The notes under the pieces are model-generated. The model ran no database searches, was not told the DNA's origin, and saw nothing but the letters and a program-made list of their open reading frames with translations. From a virus (lineage: Duplodnaviria > Caudoviricetes): DNA of 64,000 nt. Where the stretch lies: IMG/VR virus record IMGVR_UViG_3300029288_000066, positions 32,001 through 96,000 of that record; one strand, 5' to 3'. Positions within the stretch are counted from its first letter, which is position 1. The number at the start of each line of letters is the position of its first letter. Below are positions 26,364 through 59,672 of this stretch, one piece after another. A program made the translations under genes and the position numbers.

Positions 26364-28310
26364 TTATCTGCCGATATTTGACGCCGTTCTCGCCGCTGAA
26401 CGTTTTACTAATCCGAACCACTTCTGAATGGGCACCAATTTCATAGCCTGCTCTTTGGTAACATCGATTCCAAAGTTCGTTCTTAACAAACTCAAAAGTC
26501 TTTCTATTCCATAGAAATTTGGGTTGTCAACAAAAGATGTAACAACCTTTTTAACAAAATCATTATATATTGGTTCTCCCACTGTATCAATAATTTCTTC
26601 TTTTGTTAAGTTTGTTCTTTTGTTAATCGGGTCTTCAGCTGTAACATCTAAAATTCTGCTAATGTACTGCACATATTTGTCATAGCCAAGCTCGTCAATA
26701 ATGACATCTTTACTTACATCCAATTTGTTTTCAAATGGACTAATCATTGCTTTATCATAAAGGTCTTTTATGTATTTTTCAAACTTGTAATCACCAATTA
26801 TTTCCTTAAGCTGCTGAGCCGTTAAATCAACATCATAGTTCGATTTTAAGATTGCCAAAACACCATTTACCCCCGAAACATTATCAGAATTAATCAATTT
26901 TTCTATTATATTGATTATAAAGGCATCATATTTTTCTTTTCCTATTGTCTCTATGACCTCTTCTTTGCTTAGGTTAAGCTTTTTGTTTGAGGGGTCTTCG
27001 GAAAGTTTTTCTAATATTTTTTCAACATATTCAACATAGCTTTGTAACCCAAGCTCATCAACAATTTCCTGTTTTGTTACCTCTAATCTGTTCAGGACTG
27101 GGTTTTCCATTGCCTTGTCCAAAAGAGCTCTTATATATTCTTTATACTTTTCATCTCCAACAAACGTTTTAAGCTCTTGCTGTGTCAAATGAATATCATA
27201 GTTATCTCTTAGTTTTTGTAAAACACTTCCAAGGCTGTGAATATTATCGCTCTCTAACAATTTTTGAACTAATGCTGTCACAAACTTTTTGTGATTTTCT
27301 TCTCCAATAACTCTTTTAATTTCTTCTTGAGAAACGTTTAATCTGTTATAGGCTGGATTTTCCAACACTTTGCCCAATTGTTTATATATATATTTTTTAT
27401 ATAATTCTTCTCCAATGATTTTTTTTGCTTCATCCATGCTTATTTCCAATTTACTGTAAGATGTGTTGTCAAGATTTTTAATAAGCATATTATAAACATA
27501 CTCTTTGAATTTTTCTCCGACAAAGATGTTTTTAATCTGTTCCAGATTCAAGTCATTAGAATAACGCCAATTAAATCCTTTTAATGTTCCTTTATTTGCC
27601 ATATCTCTAAGAAAATCGTACACAAATGGTATATATTTTTCAACTGGTGGCTGATTTCTTTTACCTTTTACCTGGGTAACATATAATTTATCGGGTTCTC
27701 CATTATATGCAATGGTTACGTGTGGTTCTTTGTTTTTGTCTCTTAAAGAAAAAAGAGTTGTCGCCGAACTATCTACCCCACAATGTCCCATTGCCGCAGC
27801 CTCAACACTTGAGTTGTTTGTATGCAAATCAATCCAATAATCATTGTCTGGATACGTTTTTAATATAGTACCAGATTCATCTTCGATTTTTCCTTTCGCC
27901 TCCTTAGAAGAATTCCATTCATTTGCGTTTTCTACGGCTTCTGACAAACTATCAATTTGCCTAAGGTCTACTGGCTGCCCTGATACATTAGCGTCTTTTA
28001 TCCACTCTAAAACATAGTTTAGCTCACCCACTTTTGACCTTGAATAAGCCACCAACTCTTCCTGGTCTAACATTGGAAGGATATTCTTTATATGACCTCC
28101 CCCAGAGCCTTTTTCTTTAGCAAATTCCTTCGTAAGTATATTGCCCAAAAAAACAGAATATTTTTTATTAAACTCAAGCAAAAAATTTGACATGCCATCT
28201 GAAAAACCAAGCCCCCTCAATTTGTCTGTATCATTCTCAGTTAGCAACTCACTCTCCGAAAGTAAACCAGCCAATTTTTGGATTCTTGATTTATACTCCT
28301 CTGAAATCAT
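26364..28310 (-). CDS. Late protein with PcfJ-like domain and C-terminal helical repeats
   Basis: EAAAMGHCG..LFSLRD...PHVTI...QVKGKRNQPP; about 9 repeats; TATTTATA at 28328. Confidence 0.65.
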   Translation of the reverse strand: MISEEYKSRIQKLAGLLSESELLTENDTDKLRGLGFSDGMSNFLLEFNKKYSVFLGNILTKEFAKEKGSGGGHIKNILPMLDQEELVAYSRSKVGELNYVLEWIKDANVSGQPVDLRQIDSLSEAVENANEWNSSKEAKGKIEDESGTILKTYPDNDYWIDLHTNNSSVEAAAMGHCGVDSSATTLFSLRDKNKEPHVTIAYNGEPDKLYVTQVKGKRNQPPVEKYIPFVYDFLRDMANKGTLKGFNWRYSNDLNLEQIKNIFVGEKFKEYVYNMLIKNLDNTSYSKLEISMDEAKKIIGEELYKKYIYKQLGKVLENPAYNRLNVSQEEIKRVIGEENHKKFVTALVQKLLESDNIHSLGSVLQKLRDNYDIHLTQQELKTFVGDEKYKEYIRALLDKAMENPVLNRLEVTKQEIVDELGLQSYVEYVEKILEKLSEDPSNKKLNLSKEEVIETIGKEKYDAFIINIIEKLINSDNVSGVNGVLAILKSNYDVDLTAQQLKEIIGDYKFEKYIKDLYDKAMISPFENKLDVSKDVIIDELGYDKYVQYISRILDVTAEDPINKRTNLTKEEIIDTVGEPIYNDFVKKVVTSFVDNPNFYGIERLLSLLRTNFGIDVTKEQAMKLVPIQKWFGLVKRSAARTASNIGR

Positions 28311-28378: not shown

Positions 28379-29929
28379 ATGAAAAAGGCAGAAAAAATTA
28401 AAAAACTCCTAGAGGAAAAGTTTAATTCACCCCCCCAATCTCTGGAAGAAGATATTAAGATAAAGAAATTAAATCCAGAAGTAGACGGTTCATACTATAT
28501 TTTCGCAACATCCGACTCAATAGACCCCAAAACAAGAACCATGGAAACGGGGAACTTTGGAAACTTATCAAACGTTGCAAAAAGTGCGCAGCACAAGTGG
28601 GGTCACGATTTTACAATGCCTGTAAATGTAAAATATAAAGATAAATTCGGTTGGGGATATAAGATAACCCCAGGAATGAGCTCAGAAGAAGCGTCCAGGC
28701 TTCTTGACCAACTAAAAAAATTGGTTGATGAGTATAATGTAATGAAGAAACGTCCAATAGACCCAGAAACTGCCAGCCTTTCATCTCCAGAACAAGTAAG
28801 TGCAATATCACAAATAGCAGATATGGTTGAAAAAGCTATAGAAGACAATACAAATCCTAAAATAAAAGAAAACCTTGAACATTATCTAGATGAGCTTGAA
28901 AACGCTATTCAAACCGATGAAGTATACCAATTTTTAATTGAGTCGTATGAGAAGACTAGCAATTTCCAGAAAAGAAACCTTTTGTTCTATCGTTATTCTT
29001 TTGGAAATGCTCTTATAATCAGATATGCTGACCCAGAGGCAACATTTGCCGCATCAAAAAAAGGTTGGGAAGATAAAGGATATAGAATAAAACCAGAATT
29101 TTCACAAGGTATTACCATATTCAAAAAAGGGCTGCAAAACACCACTCTTAAAAACGCCAAATGGTTCGAAAGGAACCCAGAAGAATGGAGACAATATAAA
29201 GACACATTTGATATTCCTTTTGGAATGACTGTTGAAAAATATTTAGAAGGCTCAAAAAAAGGGTCAATAGATTGGAAAAAGGCAAGACAATTAGCCACAT
29301 TCGGATTAAACAACAGGTTTTTTACCAATTATACCCCAGCTGGCGGTGATATGATACCAATTAGTACATACACAGACACTATGATTGAACCTATTCCAGG
29401 AGTTGAGCAGGTTCCCCTAGATTCATCAGAATTCTATGCAAAGGAAGACCCAATACAATCAATGGATATTAAAAAGAAAGTTGAGGTTCTTTTTGACGCT
29501 GTTCAAAAAATAGCAGATAAAATGAATGTTAATACCATTGGTATAAAAAAAGGAGACGGAGGCATAAATCAGTTTAATAGACTTTTATCTTTGGTCGCAT
29601 TGGAAAGAATTTACAAGAGGTTTGGAAAACAAATGCTTCAAGATAAATCAAAAACTGTAGAAAACGAAGAGCTTCTGAAAGGATACGCAGAAGTTGTCTC
29701 TCATATTGTAAGAAAAAACTATGGTTTGCCAGCAGAATCTAGCAAGTACAATATTACGAACCTTGGCGCTGACAGAGAAGCCATCAAAGCAAGAAGTAAA
29801 GACATTCTTTCAATAGCACATTATATGATTGAAGATATTGACTTGGCAATGGGTAAGACTCTAGAAGCAATTCAAGAAGCAAGAAAAGCAATTAGAAACA
29901 TTTTATTTGAACATTTCCTTAACAAATAA
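28379..29929 (+). CDS. ArdC-like (ssDNA-binding N-domain plus degenerate zincin) protein
   Basis: YRYSFGNALIIRYADPEATFAASKKGWEDKGYRIK; YAEVVSHIVRKNYGL...SKYNI. Confidence 0.6.
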   Translation: MKKAEKIKKLLEEKFNSPPQSLEEDIKIKKLNPEVDGSYYIFATSDSIDPKTRTMETGNFGNLSNVAKSAQHKWGHDFTMPVNVKYKDKFGWGYKITPGMSSEEASRLLDQLKKLVDEYNVMKKRPIDPETASLSSPEQVSAISQIADMVEKAIEDNTNPKIKENLEHYLDELENAIQTDEVYQFLIESYEKTSNFQKRNLLFYRYSFGNALIIRYADPEATFAASKKGWEDKGYRIKPEFSQGITIFKKGLQNTTLKNAKWFERNPEEWRQYKDTFDIPFGMTVEKYLEGSKKGSIDWKKARQLATFGLNNRFFTNYTPAGGDMIPISTYTDTMIEPIPGVEQVPLDSSEFYAKEDPIQSMDIKKKVEVLFDAVQKIADKMNVNTIGIKKGDGGINQFNRLLSLVALERIYKRFGKQMLQDKSKTVENEELLKGYAEVVSHIVRKNYGLPAESSKYNITNLGADREAIKARSKDILSIAHYMIEDIDLAMGKTLEAIQEARKAIRNILFEHFLNK

Positions 29930-53664: not shown

Positions 53665-54564
53665 ATGAGAGCTCTGAAAATTTCCCAACAGATTACAAAA
53701 AGACAGTCAGAATCATTTCAAAGATATTTAAATGAGATTGCAAGAATAAGCAAAGCAAAGACGCTGACAGGAGAAGAAGAAGTAGAACTAGCAGAAAGAA
53801 TTAAACTCGGAGACAAAAAAGCAGAAACTGAATTAATAGAAAGAAACTTAAGATTTGTTGTAAGTGTAGCAAAACAATACCAAAACGAATTTTGCCCACT
53901 AGAAGATTTGGTAAGTGAAGGCAACATAGGACTTATAAAAGCAGCTAAAAAATTCGACCCAGCAAGAGGATTTAAGTTCATATCATACGCTGTGTGGTGG
54001 ATTAGACAGTCAATTTTGTGTTATTTAAGCGATTGTTCAAGAACAATAAGAATTCCTCTCAATAAAATAAATCAAATAAATAAAATTAAAAAAATTCAAG
54101 AGTCATTTGAGCAAGAATATAGCAGAAAGCCAACCACGGATGAAATTGTTGACATTTTGGACTACGAGATTGATTCGGAAGAGTTAGAAAGGTTATTTTC
54201 AATTGACGGTGGTCTTCAATCATTAAACGCTGAGATTGTAAGTAATAAATCAAAAAAAACCGATGGTAGTGGAACAACTCTTGAGGGTCTATTGATTGAT
54301 TACACTGCCAGAAATACAGATGAAAATTTGGAGGACGAAGATTTAAAAAGAATCGTTAAGGAAATATTGAGTAAAATGCCTTATAAGCATAGAACTGTCA
54401 TTGAATTGTATTATGGATTAACTGGACAAGAGCCTAAAACCCTTGATGAAATTGGGAGGCACCTTGATTTGACCAGGGAAAGAATCAGGCAAGTTAAAAA
54501 TGCTGCGATAAGATATTTGGGAAATTCGAAAAACACCAAACTTATGAGTCCATATATGAAATAA
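53665..54564 (+). CDS. RpoD/SigA-like sigma-70 factor (Bacteroidota type, no region 1.1)
   Basis: MRALKISQQIT.R..ESF..YL.EI; NLRFVVSVAKQY; GFKFISYAVWWIRQSI; LTRERIRQ. Confidence 0.93.
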   Translation: MRALKISQQITKRQSESFQRYLNEIARISKAKTLTGEEEVELAERIKLGDKKAETELIERNLRFVVSVAKQYQNEFCPLEDLVSEGNIGLIKAAKKFDPARGFKFISYAVWWIRQSILCYLSDCSRTIRIPLNKINQINKIKKIQESFEQEYSRKPTTDEIVDILDYEIDSEELERLFSIDGGLQSLNAEIVSNKSKKTDGSGTTLEGLLIDYTARNTDENLEDEDLKRIVKEILSKMPYKHRTVIELYYGLTGQEPKTLDEIGRHLDLTRERIRQVKNAAIRYLGNSKNTKLMSPYMK

Positions 54565-55746: not shown

Positions 55747-56226
55747 TCAGCTGTTTTTTAGTTCGTCACGCAGTTTTGTTAAAACTTTTCCAAGAAGATT
55801 CTGCCCTGGCCAATCTTTGGAGTCTGTCTTCTTCGCATCATCCTCATTCAATCCGATGCCCCAAATTCGGTCAAATGGTGATGCTTCACAGATTTTTTTA
55901 TCCCCAGTAGCAAGCAAAACCTTTTTAAGAACCTCGTTCTGTGTAAACTTTGCTTTGCACCCAACGGTCATAACATCAAACTTAACCTTATCCCAAAGAG
56001 TTGAATTGAATGGTGTCACTTGTTTTCCCAGCTTCTTTATTTCATGAGGGTCAGAAATTTTCATAATTTTATCTGCCGTTGTAAAATCAGCCATTAATGT
56101 GGCCTTAGCCCACATCATATACTGTTCAGAGTTTTCAAACTTTTGTCCATCCACTTCAAACTTTGCTGGATGCCAGTTGGAAAACGGAGAATTTGATTTC
56201 CAAAAAAATTCGTATTTATTTTCCAT
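55747..56226 (-). CDS. NADAR (YbiA) family hydrolase
   Basis: FSNW, SEQYMM..KA, KFTQN, EASPFDRIWGIG, GQNLLGKVL. Confidence 0.93.
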   Translation of the reverse strand: MENKYEFFWKSNSPFSNWHPAKFEVDGQKFENSEQYMMWAKATLMADFTTADKIMKISDPHEIKKLGKQVTPFNSTLWDKVKFDVMTVGCKAKFTQNEVLKKVLLATGDKKICEASPFDRIWGIGLNEDDAKKTDSKDWPGQNLLGKVLTKLRDELKNS

Positions 56227-56240
56227 TTCTTTTTATTTTT

Positions 56241-56978
56241 TTAATCGTGTAATTCATACGACGGTGGCTCTATTATAGATTTCATATCTTCCATCCTTTT
56301 ATACTTATAACTTCTACTCGCATCACCACCATCATCAATAAGACTAAGATATTCAGAAATTTTCTTGGCATATATTTCACCGTCAATATATGCAACGTTT
56401 CTTCGTTGAGTTATCATAGGCGCATCAGGAGACTCATCTTCAAAATAAATCACATATTCTCTCTTCATCTTTTCGTTCATACTTTCGACTATCCCTGGTC
56501 TAACCCCATTATTCCAAGCCTTCTCTGGCTTCATTATGTATTCGCTGGCGGAACCTTCCTGTATTTTCTCCATTGCTCTAACCATAGAGGATGAAACATG
56601 CTCATATCTTCTGTCGCATGGAATGAACACCATCTTAATTCTTGGGTCCTGGTCTTCCATTACCCTGAGCTGGTTTACTTCAAAGTCAAGGTCGGCACCG
56701 TTTCTTAATCCCCTCACGACTGTAACGTCATATCCTTCCTCCACCTTCTTATTGACATAATCAACAAGAAATCCTTTAAATTCTTCTACTTTTTTATTGG
56801 GGGGCAATTGACGTTTCAGCGTTTCTAATCTGCTGATTTTTTCGTCAACTTTCTTTTCTGGGTTAACGCCTATGGCTATTATAACCTCGTCAAAGATTGC
56901 TTCAGCCTTTTCCAAAATTGACAGATGCCCAATTGTCATTGGGTTGAAGCTTCCTGGATATATTGCTAATCTCTTCAT
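56241..56978 (-). CDS. coaD: Phosphopantetheine adenylyltransferase with C-terminal extension
   Basis: AIYPGSFNPMTIGH, VRGLRNGADLDFE, VSSSMVR. Confidence 0.9.
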   Translation of the reverse strand: MKRLAIYPGSFNPMTIGHLSILEKAEAIFDEVIIAIGVNPEKKVDEKISRLETLKRQLPPNKKVEEFKGFLVDYVNKKVEEGYDVTVVRGLRNGADLDFEVNQLRVMEDQDPRIKMVFIPCDRRYEHVSSSMVRAMEKIQEGSASEYIMKPEKAWNNGVRPGIVESMNEKMKREYVIYFEDESPDAPMITQRRNVAYIDGEIYAKKISEYLSLIDDGGDASRSYKYKRMEDMKSIIEPPSYELHD

Positions 56979-57018: not shown

Positions 57019-57059
57019 TTTTTCTACATATTTATGTAATACAATAATACAAAAAAAAT

Positions 57060-57917
57060 ATGAAAAAACAAAATTCAGACCTTATTAAATTTGCAAAAGA
57101 ATTTGCATATGCCTATAGTCCACACACAAACAGAATAGATAAATTGACTTTGTTCGACTATCAAAAGAAAATGCTAGAGTCACTTGAGAAGAATAAATTC
57201 ACTATCATTAAACATAGCAGACAAGTTGGAGTTGATACAGCCGTGGCCATAGATATTGCTCATTTTGTTGTGAAAAATGGCAACAAAAGAGCTCTTGTCA
57301 TTTCTACTAATGCAGACTGTGCTATACATTTTTTGGAAAAAATAAAAACAATTCTTTATCATGCAAATGAAACTCCTGTTATAAACAACAAGAAAAGTGT
57401 TGAATTAAAAAACAACAGCAAAATAACAGTAACTGGATACGACCCATGTTCCACAAAGGGGTTTAATTGTGATTTAATTTATATAAACAATTTCGAATGG
57501 TTAAATGACCCACAACAGGTTTTTTTAACATCAACCATGTTGTTAAAAAGTAGCGTTGGTAGACTTATAATATCATCTACTCCCCAATATAAAGAAGACT
57601 TCTTTTATAGATTGTGGACTAATTCAGCAAAAAAAATAAACGATTTTAAACAAATAAATGTTACATGGAAGCAATGTCCATATTTTGATGCTGCCTGGTA
57701 TGAAAAAATGTGCAAAATGTATAATCACGACCCAGACAAAATAGCAACAGAAATAGAAGGAAAATTTATAGACAAAAAAGAGAAGAAGAAAAAAGTAGCA
57801 ATTAATATAAGATTAGACAAACAAAAGAAGGAGAAAATTCTAATCAAAATGAAACAAAAAAACATAAGCTCCATAACGGATTACATCATGGAGCTTATTG
57901 ATAGGGATTTAGGATAA
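57060..57917 (+). CDS. Degenerate terminase-large-subunit ATPase domain fused to C-terminal RHH
   Basis: LFDYQK, KHSRQVGVDT, LKNNSKI, LIYINNF, ISSTP; tail AINIRLDKQKKEKI...SITDYIMELIDRDL. Confidence 0.7.
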   Translation: MKKQNSDLIKFAKEFAYAYSPHTNRIDKLTLFDYQKKMLESLEKNKFTIIKHSRQVGVDTAVAIDIAHFVVKNGNKRALVISTNADCAIHFLEKIKTILYHANETPVINNKKSVELKNNSKITVTGYDPCSTKGFNCDLIYINNFEWLNDPQQVFLTSTMLLKSSVGRLIISSTPQYKEDFFYRLWTNSAKKINDFKQINVTWKQCPYFDAAWYEKMCKMYNHDPDKIATEIEGKFIDKKEKKKKVAINIRLDKQKKEKILIKMKQKNISSITDYIMELIDRDLG

Positions 57918-57918
57918 A

Positions 57919-58632
57919 TTATTTTTTCTTCTTTTCAAGAATGTTATCAATCAAATGATATTCTTTTGCTTCAACAGCGCTCATCCAGCAATCACGGTCT
58001 GAATCTTTTTCAACCTTTTTAAATGGTTGTTTTGAATGGAGGGCAATAATGTCATAAAGTTCTTTCTTCATCTTGTTAATTTCTGCCGCTGCAATCTCTA
58101 TATCAGAAGCCTGCCCATAAGCTCCGCCCATTGGCTGATGAATTAATGTTCTTGAGTGTTTTAATGCACTTCTGTGTCCTTCAGCGCCAGCACATAGCAG
58201 AACAGCTGCCATTGATGCTGCTATCCCAGTATTCACCGTTACAATTCTTGGAGCAACATATTGCATTAAATCATAAATACCAAGTCCTGCATATACCGAG
58301 CCGCCTGGAGAATTTAGATATATATTAATGTCCGCATCTTTGTCTACTGATTCTAAAAACAGCAATTGGGCATTAACAATGTTGGCAATCATATCGTCGA
58401 TAGGAAGACCAAGAAAAATGATTCTGTCAGCCATAAGCCTCGAAAATACGTCCATCGAAATTGCATTCATTTTTCTCTCCTCAATAATGTTGGGGGTCAT
58501 TGCAACAGGTCCTGCCGCATTAACTCCAAGAGTAGTTCTCTTGTTTATTGCAGAATGATAGTTGTGTAAAGTCATGCTACTAATTCCCCTATGCCCCATG
58601 GCATATTTTTCAAATTCACTTCTGTTCTTCAT
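57919..58632 (-). CDS. clpP: Clp protease proteolytic subunit
   Basis: MDVFSRLMADRIIFLG, YLNSPGGSV, AASMAA, IHQP, DSDRD. Confidence 0.95.
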   Translation of the reverse strand: MKNRSEFEKYAMGHRGISSMTLHNYHSAINKRTTLGVNAAGPVAMTPNIIEERKMNAISMDVFSRLMADRIIFLGLPIDDMIANIVNAQLLFLESVDKDADINIYLNSPGGSVYAGLGIYDLMQYVAPRIVTVNTGIAASMAAVLLCAGAEGHRSALKHSRTLIHQPMGGAYGQASDIEIAAAEINKMKKELYDIIALHSKQPFKKVEKDSDRDCWMSAVEAKEYHLIDNILEKKKK

Positions 58633-58664: not shown

Positions 58665-59672
58665 TTACAATCCCATTTCTTCTTGAATGATTAATTCGTT
58701 CCCTATGTTGTTTAAATCTTTAGTTTTTAAAGAAACTCTTTCTAGGTCTTCTGTGAATTCCTCTTTTAAAACTTTCGCCTGCACCCTTAATCTCTCTTGG
58801 TTTTCATATTTTTTAACCAAAGATAGTTTTTTGTTTAAATCTGAATCAATAGCTTTCTTTATTGCACCCAATTTTGTGTTTGAATCTCTCATTTCTTTGA
58901 ATACCTTCTTTGTTTCTTCTAAGCTGTGATGGTAAAGATATATGTTGGGAAAAACTTCTGCAACTTTCTCTAGTTTTTGATATTCACAATGAGGATAAAG
59001 CGGCGGATAAGCCGTTGCTGTTGATTCGTGGAAAATAAAAACATTCTCTGGTGATTTAGCTATAGATTCGTATAGTGCTGGATTCGTTTCGCTAATTATT
59101 TCAGTAATTGGAACATTGATATCTCCACTATAAATCAGAAATAAATCTTCACCACCCTTTTTGAAATTAAAAACAAACCCCGCAGATGGGAAGTCTTTAT
59201 AATGGTGACTTGTCGTTTCTACTTTATGAATTATCATATTCAAATTGTCATATAAAACACCAGGATTCGAATTGATTTCATAACTATCTTCGCTGTGACC
59301 ACAAACATCTCTCAGGTATTTTTCAAGATTCGGCTTTAAAGAAGGAATACATTCTATTTTCACAGGTTTCTTTTGTACAAAATATTTGTGATAAACAAGA
59401 GTGGACAAACTTCCTATATGGTCTTCGTGACAATGGGTGATGAACACACAATCAATGCCATCAACTAAATCTTTTTCTCTCAGCTCCGTATATACCGTGG
59501 AACCACAATCAACCAAAATGGTTCCCACAGCCGTTCTTATAATGGCACTTGAATTCTTTTCTTTTAAATCAAAAGCGCCGCCCGTTCCCAAAAAGCTTAT
59601 TTCAACTATTGGAGATTTTCCTGTATTCCTAAGTAAAGAATTTATTTTCGATTTTAATATAAACTTTGCCAT
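58665..59672 (-). CDS. MBL-fold hydrolase (RNase Z/BN-like)
   Basis: FLGTGGA, LVDCG, THCHEDH, YSGD, HEST, LYH. Confidence 0.8.
   Translation of the reverse strand: MAKFILKSKINSLLRNTGKSPIVEISFLGTGGAFDLKEKNSSAIIRTAVGTILVDCGSTVYTELREKDLVDGIDCVFITHCHEDHIGSLSTLVYHKYFVQKKPVKIECIPSLKPNLEKYLRDVCGHSEDSYEINSNPGVLYDNLNMIIHKVETTSHHYKDFPSAGFVFNFKKGGEDLFLIYSGDINVPITEIISETNPALYESIAKSPENVFIFHESTATAYPPLYPHCEYQKLEKVAEVFPNIYLYHHSLEETKKVFKEMRDSNTKLGAIKKAIDSDLNKKLSLVKKYENQERLRVQAKVLKEEFTEDLERVSLKTKDLNNIGNELIIQEEMGL

What the first reader, a model, noticed from the sequence alone, without database searches (positions are those of the whole stretch)
57029..57917. Catalytically dead terminase ATPase domain fused to an RHH: possible decoy or regulator
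Seen: a gp17-like ATPase scaffold (YQ adenine motif, SRQxG, N.S.I, ISSTP) with Walker A GVDT and Walker B INN instead of IDE, and no nuclease domain. In its place is a C-terminal RHH-like segment. A tandem TAATACAA x2 (57037-57052) sits between promoter and ATG. Known: Avs/STAND defence proteins sense the terminase ATPase fold. Inference: an autoregulated pseudo-terminase acting as an immune decoy, a dominant-negative packaging modulator, or a nucleotide-sensing transcription factor.
Basis: partly seen in the sequence, partly recalled or inferred. Interest (0 to 1): 0.7.

Follow-up and report, generated by a model that had tools for sequence, protein, structure and literature searches.

The report
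Dead terminase ATPase fused to RHH
A huge uncultured phage carries a conserved, self-regulating DNA-binding protein built from the ATPase half of the DNA-packaging enzyme, with its catalytic residues lost; it belongs to a large family that databases simply label "terminase large subunit".

Summary
ORF 57060-57917 (+, 285 aa) is a T4 gp17-type large-terminase (TerL) ATPase domain with no nuclease domain. It ends in a ribbon-helix-helix (RHH) DNA-binding domain.

All four key catalytic positions are replaced: both possible Walker A lysines, the P-loop Ser/Thr, and the Walker B Asp-Glu.

It is not a one-off. At least 64 clusters (50% identity) of 241-334 aa proteins share the architecture. They form one lineage separate from full-length TerLs. 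Only 2 of 64 keep a full catalytic set, against 63 of 63 full-length relatives that keep Walker B Asp-Glu.

The RHH is the best-conserved part, and dN/dS is about 0.25-0.34.

The tandem repeat is a real cis-element. About 20 distinct loci (25-60% protein identity) show TATTTAT, then two GTAATACA/GTATGACA boxes, then the ATG. The boxes are essentially confined to this gene, which points to autoregulation through the RHH.

What the pseudo-ATPase domain does is inferred. I favour a non-catalytic, DNA-anchored partner of the packaging motor, similar to a small terminase (TerS).

No record that I could search holds both this gene and a full TerL, and all such records are fragments. The decoy idea has no support.

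I found no description of the family in the papers searched. Earlier notes from this scan showed nothing similar on other DNA.

The parts
57029..57035 (+). TATTTAT promoter-like motif, 31 nt upstream of the ATG
   Evidence: Read directly. The same motif, usually TATTTATA, lies 14-30 nt upstream of about 45-50 genes in the 229-kb record. It also precedes the homologous gene in about 20 other loci. Promoter function is inferred.
57036..57043 (+). Box 1, GTAATACA. With the preceding T it reads TGTAATACA, a TGTA-n-TACA near-palindrome. Putative RHH operator half-site.
   Evidence: Conserved as GTAATACA or GTATGACA directly after TATTTAT in distant homologues. After my correction of the script counts (two family genes mis-sorted, three hits sharing the same intergenic region), 12 of 13 family genes carry a box, against about 5 of 277 other genes in the same loci.
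57044..57051 (+). Box 2, ATAATACA, in tandem with box 1 (8-nt centre spacing)
   Evidence: A second box is present in nearly all homologous loci, at a centre spacing of 8-9 or about 21 nt. This is the only tandem occurrence in the 228,886-bp record.
57060..57917 (+). ORF of 285 aa (stop codon included): TerL-derived pseudo-ATPase fused to an RHH
57060..57779 (+). Residues 1-240: T4 gp17-type ATPase-domain fold, corresponding to roughly gp17 residues 136-360. It lacks the gp17 N-terminal ~135 residues and the nuclease domain.
   Evidence: Terminase_6N covers residues 50-240. The gp17 alignment is, and the Foldseek TM by query is 0.73 to 2o0j.
57210..57239 (+). Walker A equivalent, residues 51-60 (K-H-S-R-Q-V-G-V-D-T). 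Neither the canonical lysine (V58) nor the deviant upstream lysine (H52) is present, and D59 replaces the P-loop Ser/Thr. R54 and Q55 are retained.
   Evidence: Motif tables; alignment to gp17.
57474..57497 (+). Walker B equivalent, residues 139-146 (L-I-Y-I-N-N-F-E). Asp-Glu is replaced by Asn-Asn. E146 is invariant in the close clade.
57795..57914 (+). Residues 246-285: RHH domain (strand A-I-N-I-R-L, helix 254-267, helix 272-284). It is the most conserved part of the protein.

Best explanation
What it is (shown): a stand-alone gene for a 285-aa protein. Its first ~240 residues are a T4-type large-terminase ATPase domain without the catalytic residues or the nuclease domain. Its last ~40 residues are a ribbon-helix-helix DNA-binding domain. 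It belongs to an old, single-origin and widespread family in large uncultured phages. That family is distinct from the true TerLs.

How it is controlled (strongly inferred): the gene is read from a phage-specific TATTTAT-type promoter. RHH dimers of its own product bind the two GTAATACA boxes between promoter and start codon. The protein therefore represses its own synthesis when it is free.

What it does (inferred, my preferred reading): the pseudo-ATPase domain keeps the TerL surface and the R-Q, N-G-S and S-T-P signature motifs. It acts as a non-catalytic partner of the real packaging ATPase. In this reading it is a DNA-anchored, small-terminase-like adaptor or regulator that ties a specific DNA site to the motor. 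Its level is set by titration: protein engaged in packaging complexes no longer represses its gene.

My odds: architecture and pseudo-enzyme status about 0.9; autoregulation through the boxes about 0.7; a packaging-partner role about 0.35.
For: Fold and homology:
- establish the TerL ATPase homology and fold.

Degenerate catalytic set:
- Of the nearest full-length relatives, 40 of 40 canonical and 23 of 23 deviant-Walker-A TerLs keep Walker B Asp-Glu.
- The 23 deviant TerLs all keep a lysine at position 52.
- Only 2 of 64 short RHH-bearing proteins keep a complete set, and this one keeps none.

Single origin:
- In a tree of the ATPase part alone, all 64 RHH-bearing proteins lie on one side of one branch (SH-aLRT 100; quick tree, midpoint root for drawing only).

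Constraint:
- dN/dS is 0.24-0.34.
- RHH identity in the close clade is 71%, against 40-57% for the other segments.
- R54 and Q55 are kept in 63 and 62 of 64 members. N118 and S173 are among the positions at least 90% conserved across the family.

RHH:
- Searches support the fold; a JGI annotation calls one member a CopG/RHH protein.

Operator:
- TATTTAT plus two boxes is conserved in about 20 distinct loci down to about 25% protein identity.
- Boxes occur at 12 of 13 family genes against about 5 of 277 other genes. These are my corrected counts; the script itself scored 10 of 11 against 10 of 279, Fisher p about 2e-12.
- The tandem is unique in the 229-kb record.
- Box spacing is 8-9 or about 21 nt, so sites are adjacent or two helical turns apart.
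- Members whose ribbon reads R-x-N-x-R have GTATGACA boxes, while the others have GTAATACA.

Promoter class:
-.

Precedent for a TerL-ATPase paralogue beside a full TerL:
- T4 vs.8 (PMC13601566; hhalign probability 82%).

Conserved-gene behaviour:
- It is a lone opposite-strand gene in every context examined in the huge-phage relatives (in L130, it is co-directional with its neighbours).
- A GIY-YIG homing-endonuclease gene is often inserted right after it.
Against: - No binding, oligomerisation or expression data exist.
- No record that I could search holds both this gene and a full-length TerL, so coexistence is not shown. The records with this gene are G000 (229 kb), G001 (91 kb), G002 (169 kb) and smaller ones.
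- The gene never lies in a recognisable packaging module. Its neighbours are NAD, RNA-repair, protease or replication genes.
- There is no homology to any TerS family (best is phrog_5601 at E 0.2).
- The ribbon/box covariation probably rests on one evolutionary event.
- Some family members keep Lys52 and Asp-Glu. They replace the P-loop glycine with His or Tyr, so residual nucleotide chemistry in parts of the family cannot be excluded.
Confidence: 0.5

Rival explanations
1. A pure transcription factor. The RHH is the business end, and the dead ATPase domain is only a ligand-sensing or oligomerisation module (compare NikR, MetJ and PutA). It would regulate its own gene and perhaps sites in the unsampled part of the genome, with no role in packaging.
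For: The conserved operator lies at its own promoter. The adenine-contact Y-Q and the R-Q of the P-loop are retained in this clade, so a nucleotide could still bind. The gene sits among non-structural genes.
Against: The tandem boxes occur only once in 229 kb, so no regulon is visible. A regulator with only itself as a target needs another function. TerL-specific motifs (N-G-S, S-T-P) stay conserved without an obvious reason.
Confidence: 0.22
2. The working ATPase subunit of a split terminase, with the nuclease encoded elsewhere or not needed.
For: It is the only TerL-like sequence in the 229-kb and 169-kb records. It is conserved like a core gene, and homing endonucleases are inserted next to it.
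Against: Both lysine options, the P-loop Ser/Thr and Walker B Asp-Glu are lost here. Catalytic positions vary freely across the family (DE, DN, NN, GN, SE, PE), while 63 of 63 full-length relatives keep Asp-Glu. The records are fragments that also lack T4-type capsid and portal matches. The same family sits on 364-540 kb contigs. More distantly related huge phages that share RlaP but are not syntenic with this window have a normal full-length TerL.
Confidence: 0.07
3. An anti-defence decoy or sponge for terminase-sensing immune proteins (Avs1-3, Upx).
For: The TerL ATPase domain is the part sensed by EcAvs2 and Upx, and the T4 paralogue vs.8 triggers EcAvs2 (PMC13601566). Neighbouring genes look like counter-defence functions: NADAR, and a metallo-beta-lactamase-fold protein with sub-threshold Apyc1 similarity.
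Against: A TerL look-alike would be expected to trigger such sensors, not blunt them. EcAvs2 contacts the ATP and Mg site that this protein has lost. A conserved DNA-binding domain and operator are unexplained by this reading. No sensor data exist for these hosts.
Confidence: 0.05
4. A dominant-negative poison of packaging motors, for example against co-infecting rival phages, kept at a safe dose by tight autorepression.
For: A catalytically dead subunit of a ring ATPase is a classic poison. Strong autoregulation fits a dose-sensitive protein.
Against: It would also threaten the phage's own motor. Deep conservation across very different phages suits a housekeeping role better than an arms-race weapon. 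There is no direct evidence.
Confidence: 0.06

Closest known systems
T4 gp17 large terminase, N-terminal ATPase domain (PDB 2o0h/2o0j, 3cpe; Pfam Terminase_6N)
   Same: Same fold and clear sequence homology over about 210 residues. The Y-Q adenine motif, the S-R-Q part of Walker A, the N-G-S motif and the S/T-T-P coupling motif are shared.
   Different: The N-terminal ~135 residues of gp17 are missing, as is the RNase-H-like nuclease domain. The Walker A lysine and threonine and the Walker B Asp-Glu are replaced. A C-terminal RHH is added.
Full-length TerLs with a deviant Walker A (K-x-R-Q-x-G-[ILVM]-S-T), including those of 330-370 kb uncultured phages
   Same: They are the nearest full-length relatives by profile score (A2 gives 182 bits to the G012 TerL against 154 to T4 gp17). 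They also have a hydrophobic residue at the classical lysine position.
   Different: They keep the upstream lysine (23 of 23), Asp-Glu (23 of 23) and the nuclease domain, and they have no RHH.
T4 vs.8 (219 aa), an uncharacterised TerL-ATPase-like paralogue that activates EcAvs2 (PMC13601566)
   Same: It is a short stand-alone paralogue of the TerL ATPase domain, encoded beside a full TerL outside the packaging module. Homology to this family is weak but detectable (hhalign probability 82%, E 1e-5).
   Different: vs.8 keeps canonical R-Q-S-G-K-S and I-I-D-E motifs and has no RHH. The family profile does not find it in the T4 genome. It is not the same family.
RHH regulators and centromere-binding proteins (ParG, omega, Arc, CopG, MetJ, NikR, PutA)
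   Same: A 40-residue ribbon-helix-helix domain, with repeated short boxes at its own promoter. As in PutA and NikR, the RHH is fused to a larger non-DNA-binding domain. As with ParG and omega, the RHH protein would work with a P-loop ATPase.
   Different: The RHH here is C-terminal and is fused to a terminase-derived pseudo-ATPase. I found that combination described nowhere.
Small terminase (TerS)
   Same: This is a functional analogy only: a sequence-specific DNA-binding module joined to a module that could dock on TerL, with binding sites at its own gene, as with the pac sites of several phages (my own knowledge).
   Different: There is no sequence or fold relation to any TerS family, no adjacency to a TerL gene, and the oligomeric state is unknown.

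Membership tests
Large terminase TerL (T4 type) | ATPase-domain homology and fold | tested here: met
   Terminase_6N 1.9e-8; gp17 1.5e-43 with the family profile; Foldseek 2.4e-18.
Large terminase TerL (T4 type) | Walker A lysine, either G-K-[ST] or the deviant lysine five residues before the glycine | tested here: not met
   V58 and H52 occupy the two positions. All 63 full-length relatives have one or the other lysine.
Large terminase TerL (T4 type) | Walker B Asp and catalytic Glu | tested here: not met
   N143-N144 are present instead. Asp-Glu is kept in 63 of 63 full-length relatives.
Large terminase TerL (T4 type) | C-terminal RNase-H-like nuclease domain | tested here: not met
   There is no Terminase_6C or TerL_nuclease match in the ORF or anywhere in the record. 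The ORF ends after the RHH.
Ribbon-helix-helix (CopG/Arc/MetJ) superfamily | Strand-helix-helix unit of about 40 residues with the typical sequence pattern | tested here: met
   The models show an extended segment and two helices. The Foldseek hits are nearly all RHH proteins, with TM 0.65-0.79 and non-significant E-values. Pfam RHH families are hit by 9 of 10 tails, one above the cut-off. PDB sequence hits 2kke, ArtA, HP0222, KacA and NikA score 0.02-0.8.
Ribbon-helix-helix (CopG/Arc/MetJ) superfamily | Dimer formed through an antiparallel two-stranded ribbon | not testable with these tools
Ribbon-helix-helix (CopG/Arc/MetJ) superfamily | Specific binding to repeated operator boxes | not testable with these tools
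   Evidence is indirect only: conserved paired boxes at the gene's own promoter, and ribbon/box covariation.
Small terminase TerS | Homology to a TerS family | tested here: not met
   The only hit is phrog_5601 at E 0.2.
Small terminase TerS | Gene next to the TerL gene | tested here: not met
   No TerL lies within 10 kb in any of the contexts examined.
T4 vs.8-like TerL-ATPase paralogues | Sequence family membership | tested here: inconclusive
   hhalign gives probability 82% and E 1e-5, but the family profile does not detect vs.8 in T4. The motifs differ.

The most novel reading that the evidence does not exclude
In a large clade of huge phages the site-recognition subunit of the packaging machine is not a classical small terminase. 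It is instead a TerL-derived pseudo-ATPase with an RHH. It would dock into or onto the TerL ring through like-with-like ATPase-domain contacts, perhaps supplying its conserved arginine in trans. It would bring the motor to the GTAATACA boxes at its own gene, which would then act both as operator and as packaging start site.
Probability: 0.25. Interest if true: 0.8.

Novelty: new variant of a known kind. Interest (0 to 1): 0.6.

Why it matters
- **Annotation and phylogeny.** These proteins are labelled "terminase large subunit" by PHROGs, Pfam and the ESM Atlas. TerL is the standard marker for phage phylogeny, completeness and defence-trigger studies. A paralogous, inactive family can therefore mislead all three.
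- **Biology.** This is a clear case of a core viral motor enzyme being turned into a pseudo-enzyme fused to a DNA-binding domain. It is maintained over a depth of divergence comparable to that of TerL itself.
- **Open question in huge phages.** Small terminases and packaging start sites are mostly unknown in huge phages. If this protein partners the packaging motor, it offers a concrete, testable candidate together with its DNA site.
- **Testable cis-element.** The conserved promoter-operator module gives a ready-made handle on gene regulation in an uncultured phage group.

Tried and rejected
- **A second TerL in the same genome.** Terminase_6N, Terminase_6C, phrog_2, TerL_nuclease and TerL_ATPase, plus the TerL of a related 368-kb phage, were searched over G000, G001 and G002. 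Only this gene was found. tblastn with the Chryseobacterium phage MA9V-1 TerL gave one weak nuclease-region hit, which turned out to be a lipoprotein-like ORF.
- **Scans of other ORFs in the record.** PHROG and Pfam scans of the 22 largest ORFs and of all unannotated P-loop ORFs found no TerL, portal or capsid protein. T4 capsid and portal Pfam models also found nothing. The record is therefore uninformative on this point.
- **Larger contigs.** The 540-kb and 364-kb contigs that carry family members could not be scanned. Looking for a TerL with those contig lengths among homologue lists failed.
- **Records sharing RlaP.** Seven of 15 hold a full-length TerL and none holds the short gene. The one checked, G012, is not syntenic with this window, so this does not show a complementary distribution.
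- **Cultured phages.** No record in the phage collection shows the short RHH form.
- **RNA evidence.** No RNA holder was listed; the DNA comes from a landfill metagenome.
- **False leads.**
  - The RHH near a TerL in L034 is in an unrelated GC-rich phage.
  - The second "TerL-like" hit in G007 is a PhoH-like ATPase.
  - The G024 hit is a different RHH fusion.
- **Literature.** Three searches found no description of this architecture.
- **Earlier notes of this scan.** Searches by sequence and by words found nothing.
Full report
**The object.**
The window is part of a 228,886-bp viral record (G000, positions 32001-96000) assembled from a landfill metagenome. It is AT-rich (33% G+C).

The ORF at 57060-57917 (+) encodes 285 aa. 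It is the only + strand gene in a run of - strand genes. On one side are a NADAR protein and a cytidylyltransferase-like protein. On the other are a convergent ClpP, a metallo-beta-lactamase-fold protein and further small genes. A sigma-70-type factor lies 2.5 kb upstream.

**The ATPase part.**
Pfam Terminase_6N matches residues 50-240 (1.9e-8, above the cut-off), and PHROG phrog_2 matches at 9.5e-19. A profile of 67 family members matches the T4/RB49 gp17 structures at 1.5e-43 over about 210 residues. An AlphaFold2 model built with that alignment has mean pLDDT 95.3, and its best PDB matches are the T4 gp17 ATPase domain (2o0j, E 2.4e-18, TM 0.73), then other phage TerLs.

The alignment to gp17 gives these equivalences:

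| gp17 motif | This protein |
|---|---|
| L-R-D-Y-Q | L-F-D-Y-Q |
| S-R-Q-L-G-K-T-T | S-R-Q-V-G-V-D-T |
| M-I-Y-I-D-E | L-I-Y-I-N-N |
| T-T-T-P-N | S-S-T-P-Q |

There is no nuclease domain. Nothing in the ORF or in the whole record matches Terminase_6C or TerL_nuclease.

**Is it really dead?**
Loss of the G-K-T lysine alone proves little. I tabulated the nearest full-length relatives from the exhaustive search:

- 40 have G-K-[ST].
- 23 have a hydrophobic residue at that position. All 23 then carry a lysine five residues before the glycine (K-S-R-Q-x-G-[ILM]-S-T). This is the deviant Walker A known from other terminases (my own knowledge of the literature).
- All 63 keep Walker B Asp-Glu.

The TerLs of 233-369-kb phages that share the RlaP gene with this phage (G012-G014) are of the deviant type.

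In the present protein the deviant position is His52, the classical position is Val58, the P-loop Ser/Thr is Asp59, and Walker B is Asn-Asn. Every option is therefore closed.

**The family.**
The word-indexed search found 14 full-length proteins of 283-305 aa at 46-60% identity, plus two shorter partial ones. The exhaustive search added dozens of 50%-identity cluster representatives of 241-334 aa that align over the whole length, tail included.

I counted 64 representatives with the RHH tail. Only 2 of them keep the full deviant-type set (Lys52, Gly57, Ser/Thr59, Asp, Glu). The rest fall into subgroups:

- Lys52 with His, Tyr or Phe in place of the P-loop glycine, plus Asp-Glu, and usually F-E instead of Y-Q.
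- His or Ser at 52, with Gly57 and Asp-Asn.
- This clade: Gln or His at 52, with Gly57-x-Asp59 and Asn-Asn followed by an invariant Glu146.

In contrast, R54, Q55, N118, S173, F182, W213 and E231 are at least 90% conserved across the family.

A tree of the ATPase part alone (tail excluded) puts all 64 on one side of a single branch with SH-aLRT 100. Internal branch lengths are similar to those among true TerLs (quick tree, midpoint root for drawing only). This is an old paralogous lineage, not a set of truncations.

Among close relatives dN/dS is 0.24-0.34, with dS near saturation.

The ESM Atlas holds several clusters of 50-170 short Terminase_6N-only viral proteins, although some of these are labelled as fragments. 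No record in the cultured-phage collection shows the short RHH form.

One variant of 553 aa (L037) has about 200 extra residues between the ATPase part and the RHH. No other long form ends in an RHH.

**The tail.**
Residues 246-285 are the best-conserved segment: 71% mean identity in the close clade against 40-57% elsewhere, and 37% against 23-31% in the whole family. The pattern is x-I-N-I-R-L, a helix, a short S-x-S turn, then D-Y-I-x-x-L-I-x-K-D-L.

The evidence that this is an RHH:

- The models give an extended segment and two helices.
- The tails of 9 of 10 members hit RHH Pfam families (NikA-like, CopG_antitoxin, RHH_1, ParG, HicB, RHH_5, Arc, RelB). One hit is above the curated cut-off.
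- A tail profile finds the RHH proteins 2kke, ArtA, HP0222, KacA and NikA in the PDB at E 0.02-0.8.
- The Foldseek list for the 48-aa model is almost entirely RHH proteins, at TM 0.65-0.79 and rmsd about 1-1.7 A, though no E-value is significant for so small a domain.
- JGI annotates one member as a CopG/RHH protein.

Dimer formation could not be tested.

**The upstream element.**
This is the most telling new result. In the window the sequence reads TATTTAT (57029-35), GTAATACA (57036-43), ATAATACA (57044-51), eight A-rich bases, then ATG.

The same layout precedes the homologous gene in about 20 distinct loci from different samples, whose proteins are as little as about 25% identical. The layout is TATTTAT, 0-9 nt, a GTAATACA or GTATGACA box, a second box at a centre distance of 8-9 or about 21 nt, 2-8 nt, then ATG. 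With the preceding T each box is a TGTA-n-TACA near-palindrome, which suits a dimer.

On specificity, after correcting two mis-sorted family genes and three divergent neighbours that share the same intergenic region, 12 of 13 family genes in the loci carry a box within 70 nt. Only about 5 of 277 other genes do. The script's own uncorrected counts were 10 of 11 against 10 of 279, Fisher p about 2e-12.

In the 229-kb record GTAATACA occurs 8 times on both strands, against about 18 expected from base composition by my hand calculation. It is tandem only here.

Members whose ribbon reads R-x-N-x-R have two GTATGACA boxes (L026, L033/L141/L143, L142). Those with A/T/L/V-x-N/S/Q-x-R have GTAATACA. 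This fits direct read-out by the ribbon, but it probably reflects a single evolutionary change.

TATTTAT(A) itself is a promoter-like class. It lies 14-30 nt before the start codon of about 45-50 genes in the record, including most of the large unannotated ORFs. Only this gene has the boxes inserted after it.

**Context elsewhere.**
In relatives at 28-60% identity the gene is again a lone opposite-strand gene among NADAR, cytidylyltransferase-like, ClpP, lactamase-fold, YqeY, RlaP and sigma-factor genes. In more distant lineages it lies among SbcCD-like, exonuclease, primase, polymerase and RNA-ligase genes.

It is never seen beside a terminase, portal or capsid gene. A GIY-YIG homing-endonuclease gene is inserted just downstream on the same strand in three of the close relatives. 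Such insertions are typical next to highly conserved phage genes.

**Is there a real TerL as well?**
This is unresolved.

- No second TerL-like sequence exists in G000 (229 kb), G001 (91 kb) or G002 (169 kb).
- G000 also lacks any T4-type capsid or portal match and any other candidate packaging ATPase.
- The same family sits on contigs of 540, 364 and 210 kb. These records are therefore fragments, and the 82% completeness estimate for G000 may be too high.
- Phages that share RlaP at 41-58% identity have ordinary full-length TerLs and no short RHH gene. The one checked, the 368-kb G012, is not syntenic with this window, so no complementary distribution can be claimed.
- T4 shows that a stand-alone TerL-ATPase paralogue (vs.8) can coexist with gp17.

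**Interpretation.**
*Shown:*
- A TerL-derived domain with degenerate catalytic positions.
- A C-terminal RHH.
- A single old family under constraint.
- A conserved promoter-plus-paired-box element specific to the gene.

*Strongly inferred:*
- The RHH binds the boxes and the gene is autoregulated.

*Inferred:*
- The pseudo-ATPase domain works with the true packaging ATPase as a DNA-anchored, non-catalytic partner, analogous to a small terminase or to the ParG/omega class of RHH partners of P-loop ATPases.
- Autorepression would set its dose.

The main rival is a pure regulator whose dead ATPase domain senses a nucleotide. The split-terminase, decoy and poison readings are less likely, for the reasons given under the rival explanations.

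**Novelty.**
I found no paper describing a terminase ATPase-RHH fusion or a catalytically inactive TerL paralogue family. Earlier notes of this scan contain nothing similar. Existing resources file the family under "terminase large subunit".

Noticed in passing
G000 whole record; examples in the window at 26364-28310 (-) / 28379-29929 (+) and 62710: A promoter-like motif, (C/A)TATTTATA preceded by a T-run, lies 14-30 nt before the start codon of about 45-50 genes. These include most of the large ORFs with no family match. It is probably one phage-specific transcription class, perhaps read by the phage's own sigma-70-type factor (window 53665-54564).
   Followed up: partly
L131:10909-11805, L022:11707-12741, and the ERZ1426829 contig at 5071-6336: In three close relatives a free-standing GIY-YIG homing-endonuclease gene sits immediately downstream of the pseudo-terminase gene, on the same strand. 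It is absent from this window. This is an insertion polymorphism of the kind seen next to conserved phage genes.
   Followed up: no
window 55747-56978 (-), 57919-58632 (-), 58665-59672 (-): The neighbours are a NADAR protein (6.7e-52), a cytidylyltransferase-like (NMNAT-like) protein, ClpP (2e-71), and a metallo-beta-lactamase-fold protein with sub-threshold similarity to anti-Pycsar Apyc1 (39.5 bits against a cut-off of 50). This block is conserved across relatives and looks like NAD/nucleotide-signal counter-defence.
   Followed up: partly
L129:6844-7248 (-): In one distant relative the gene next to the pseudo-terminase is a 134-aa ORF that matches a short stretch of the T4-type major head protein (phrog_138 3.6e-8; Pfam Gp23 on record). 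This is another fragment-like paralogue of a core virion protein.
   Followed up: no
L037:2891-4552 (-): A 553-aa family variant has an N-terminal extension and about 200 extra residues of unknown nature between the ATPase-like part and the RHH. Two GTATTAC(A/G) boxes lie upstream of one candidate start.
   Followed up: partly
Full-length TerLs P0051-P0164 and L189-L191 (G012-G014): About a third of the nearest full-length TerLs, including those of 233-369-kb uncultured phages, have no G-K-T lysine. Instead they have an invariant lysine five residues before the P-loop glycine (K-x-R-Q-x-G-[ILVM]-S-T). Motif-based 'dead ATPase' calls on terminases need to check this position.
   Followed up: yes
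G000 as a whole: The record has no match to T4-type capsid, portal or nuclease-domain models, and no DNA polymerase turned up among the large ORFs scanned. Relatives with the same gene family reach 364-540 kb, so the CheckV estimate of 82% completeness is probably too high.
   Followed up: partly
L221:4575-5093 (+) (G024): A 172-aa ORF has a hydrophobic N-terminus and a C-terminal RHH-like tail resembling the one studied here (E 6e-8 to the tail part of the family profile). It is a different RHH fusion in a related phage.
   Followed up: no
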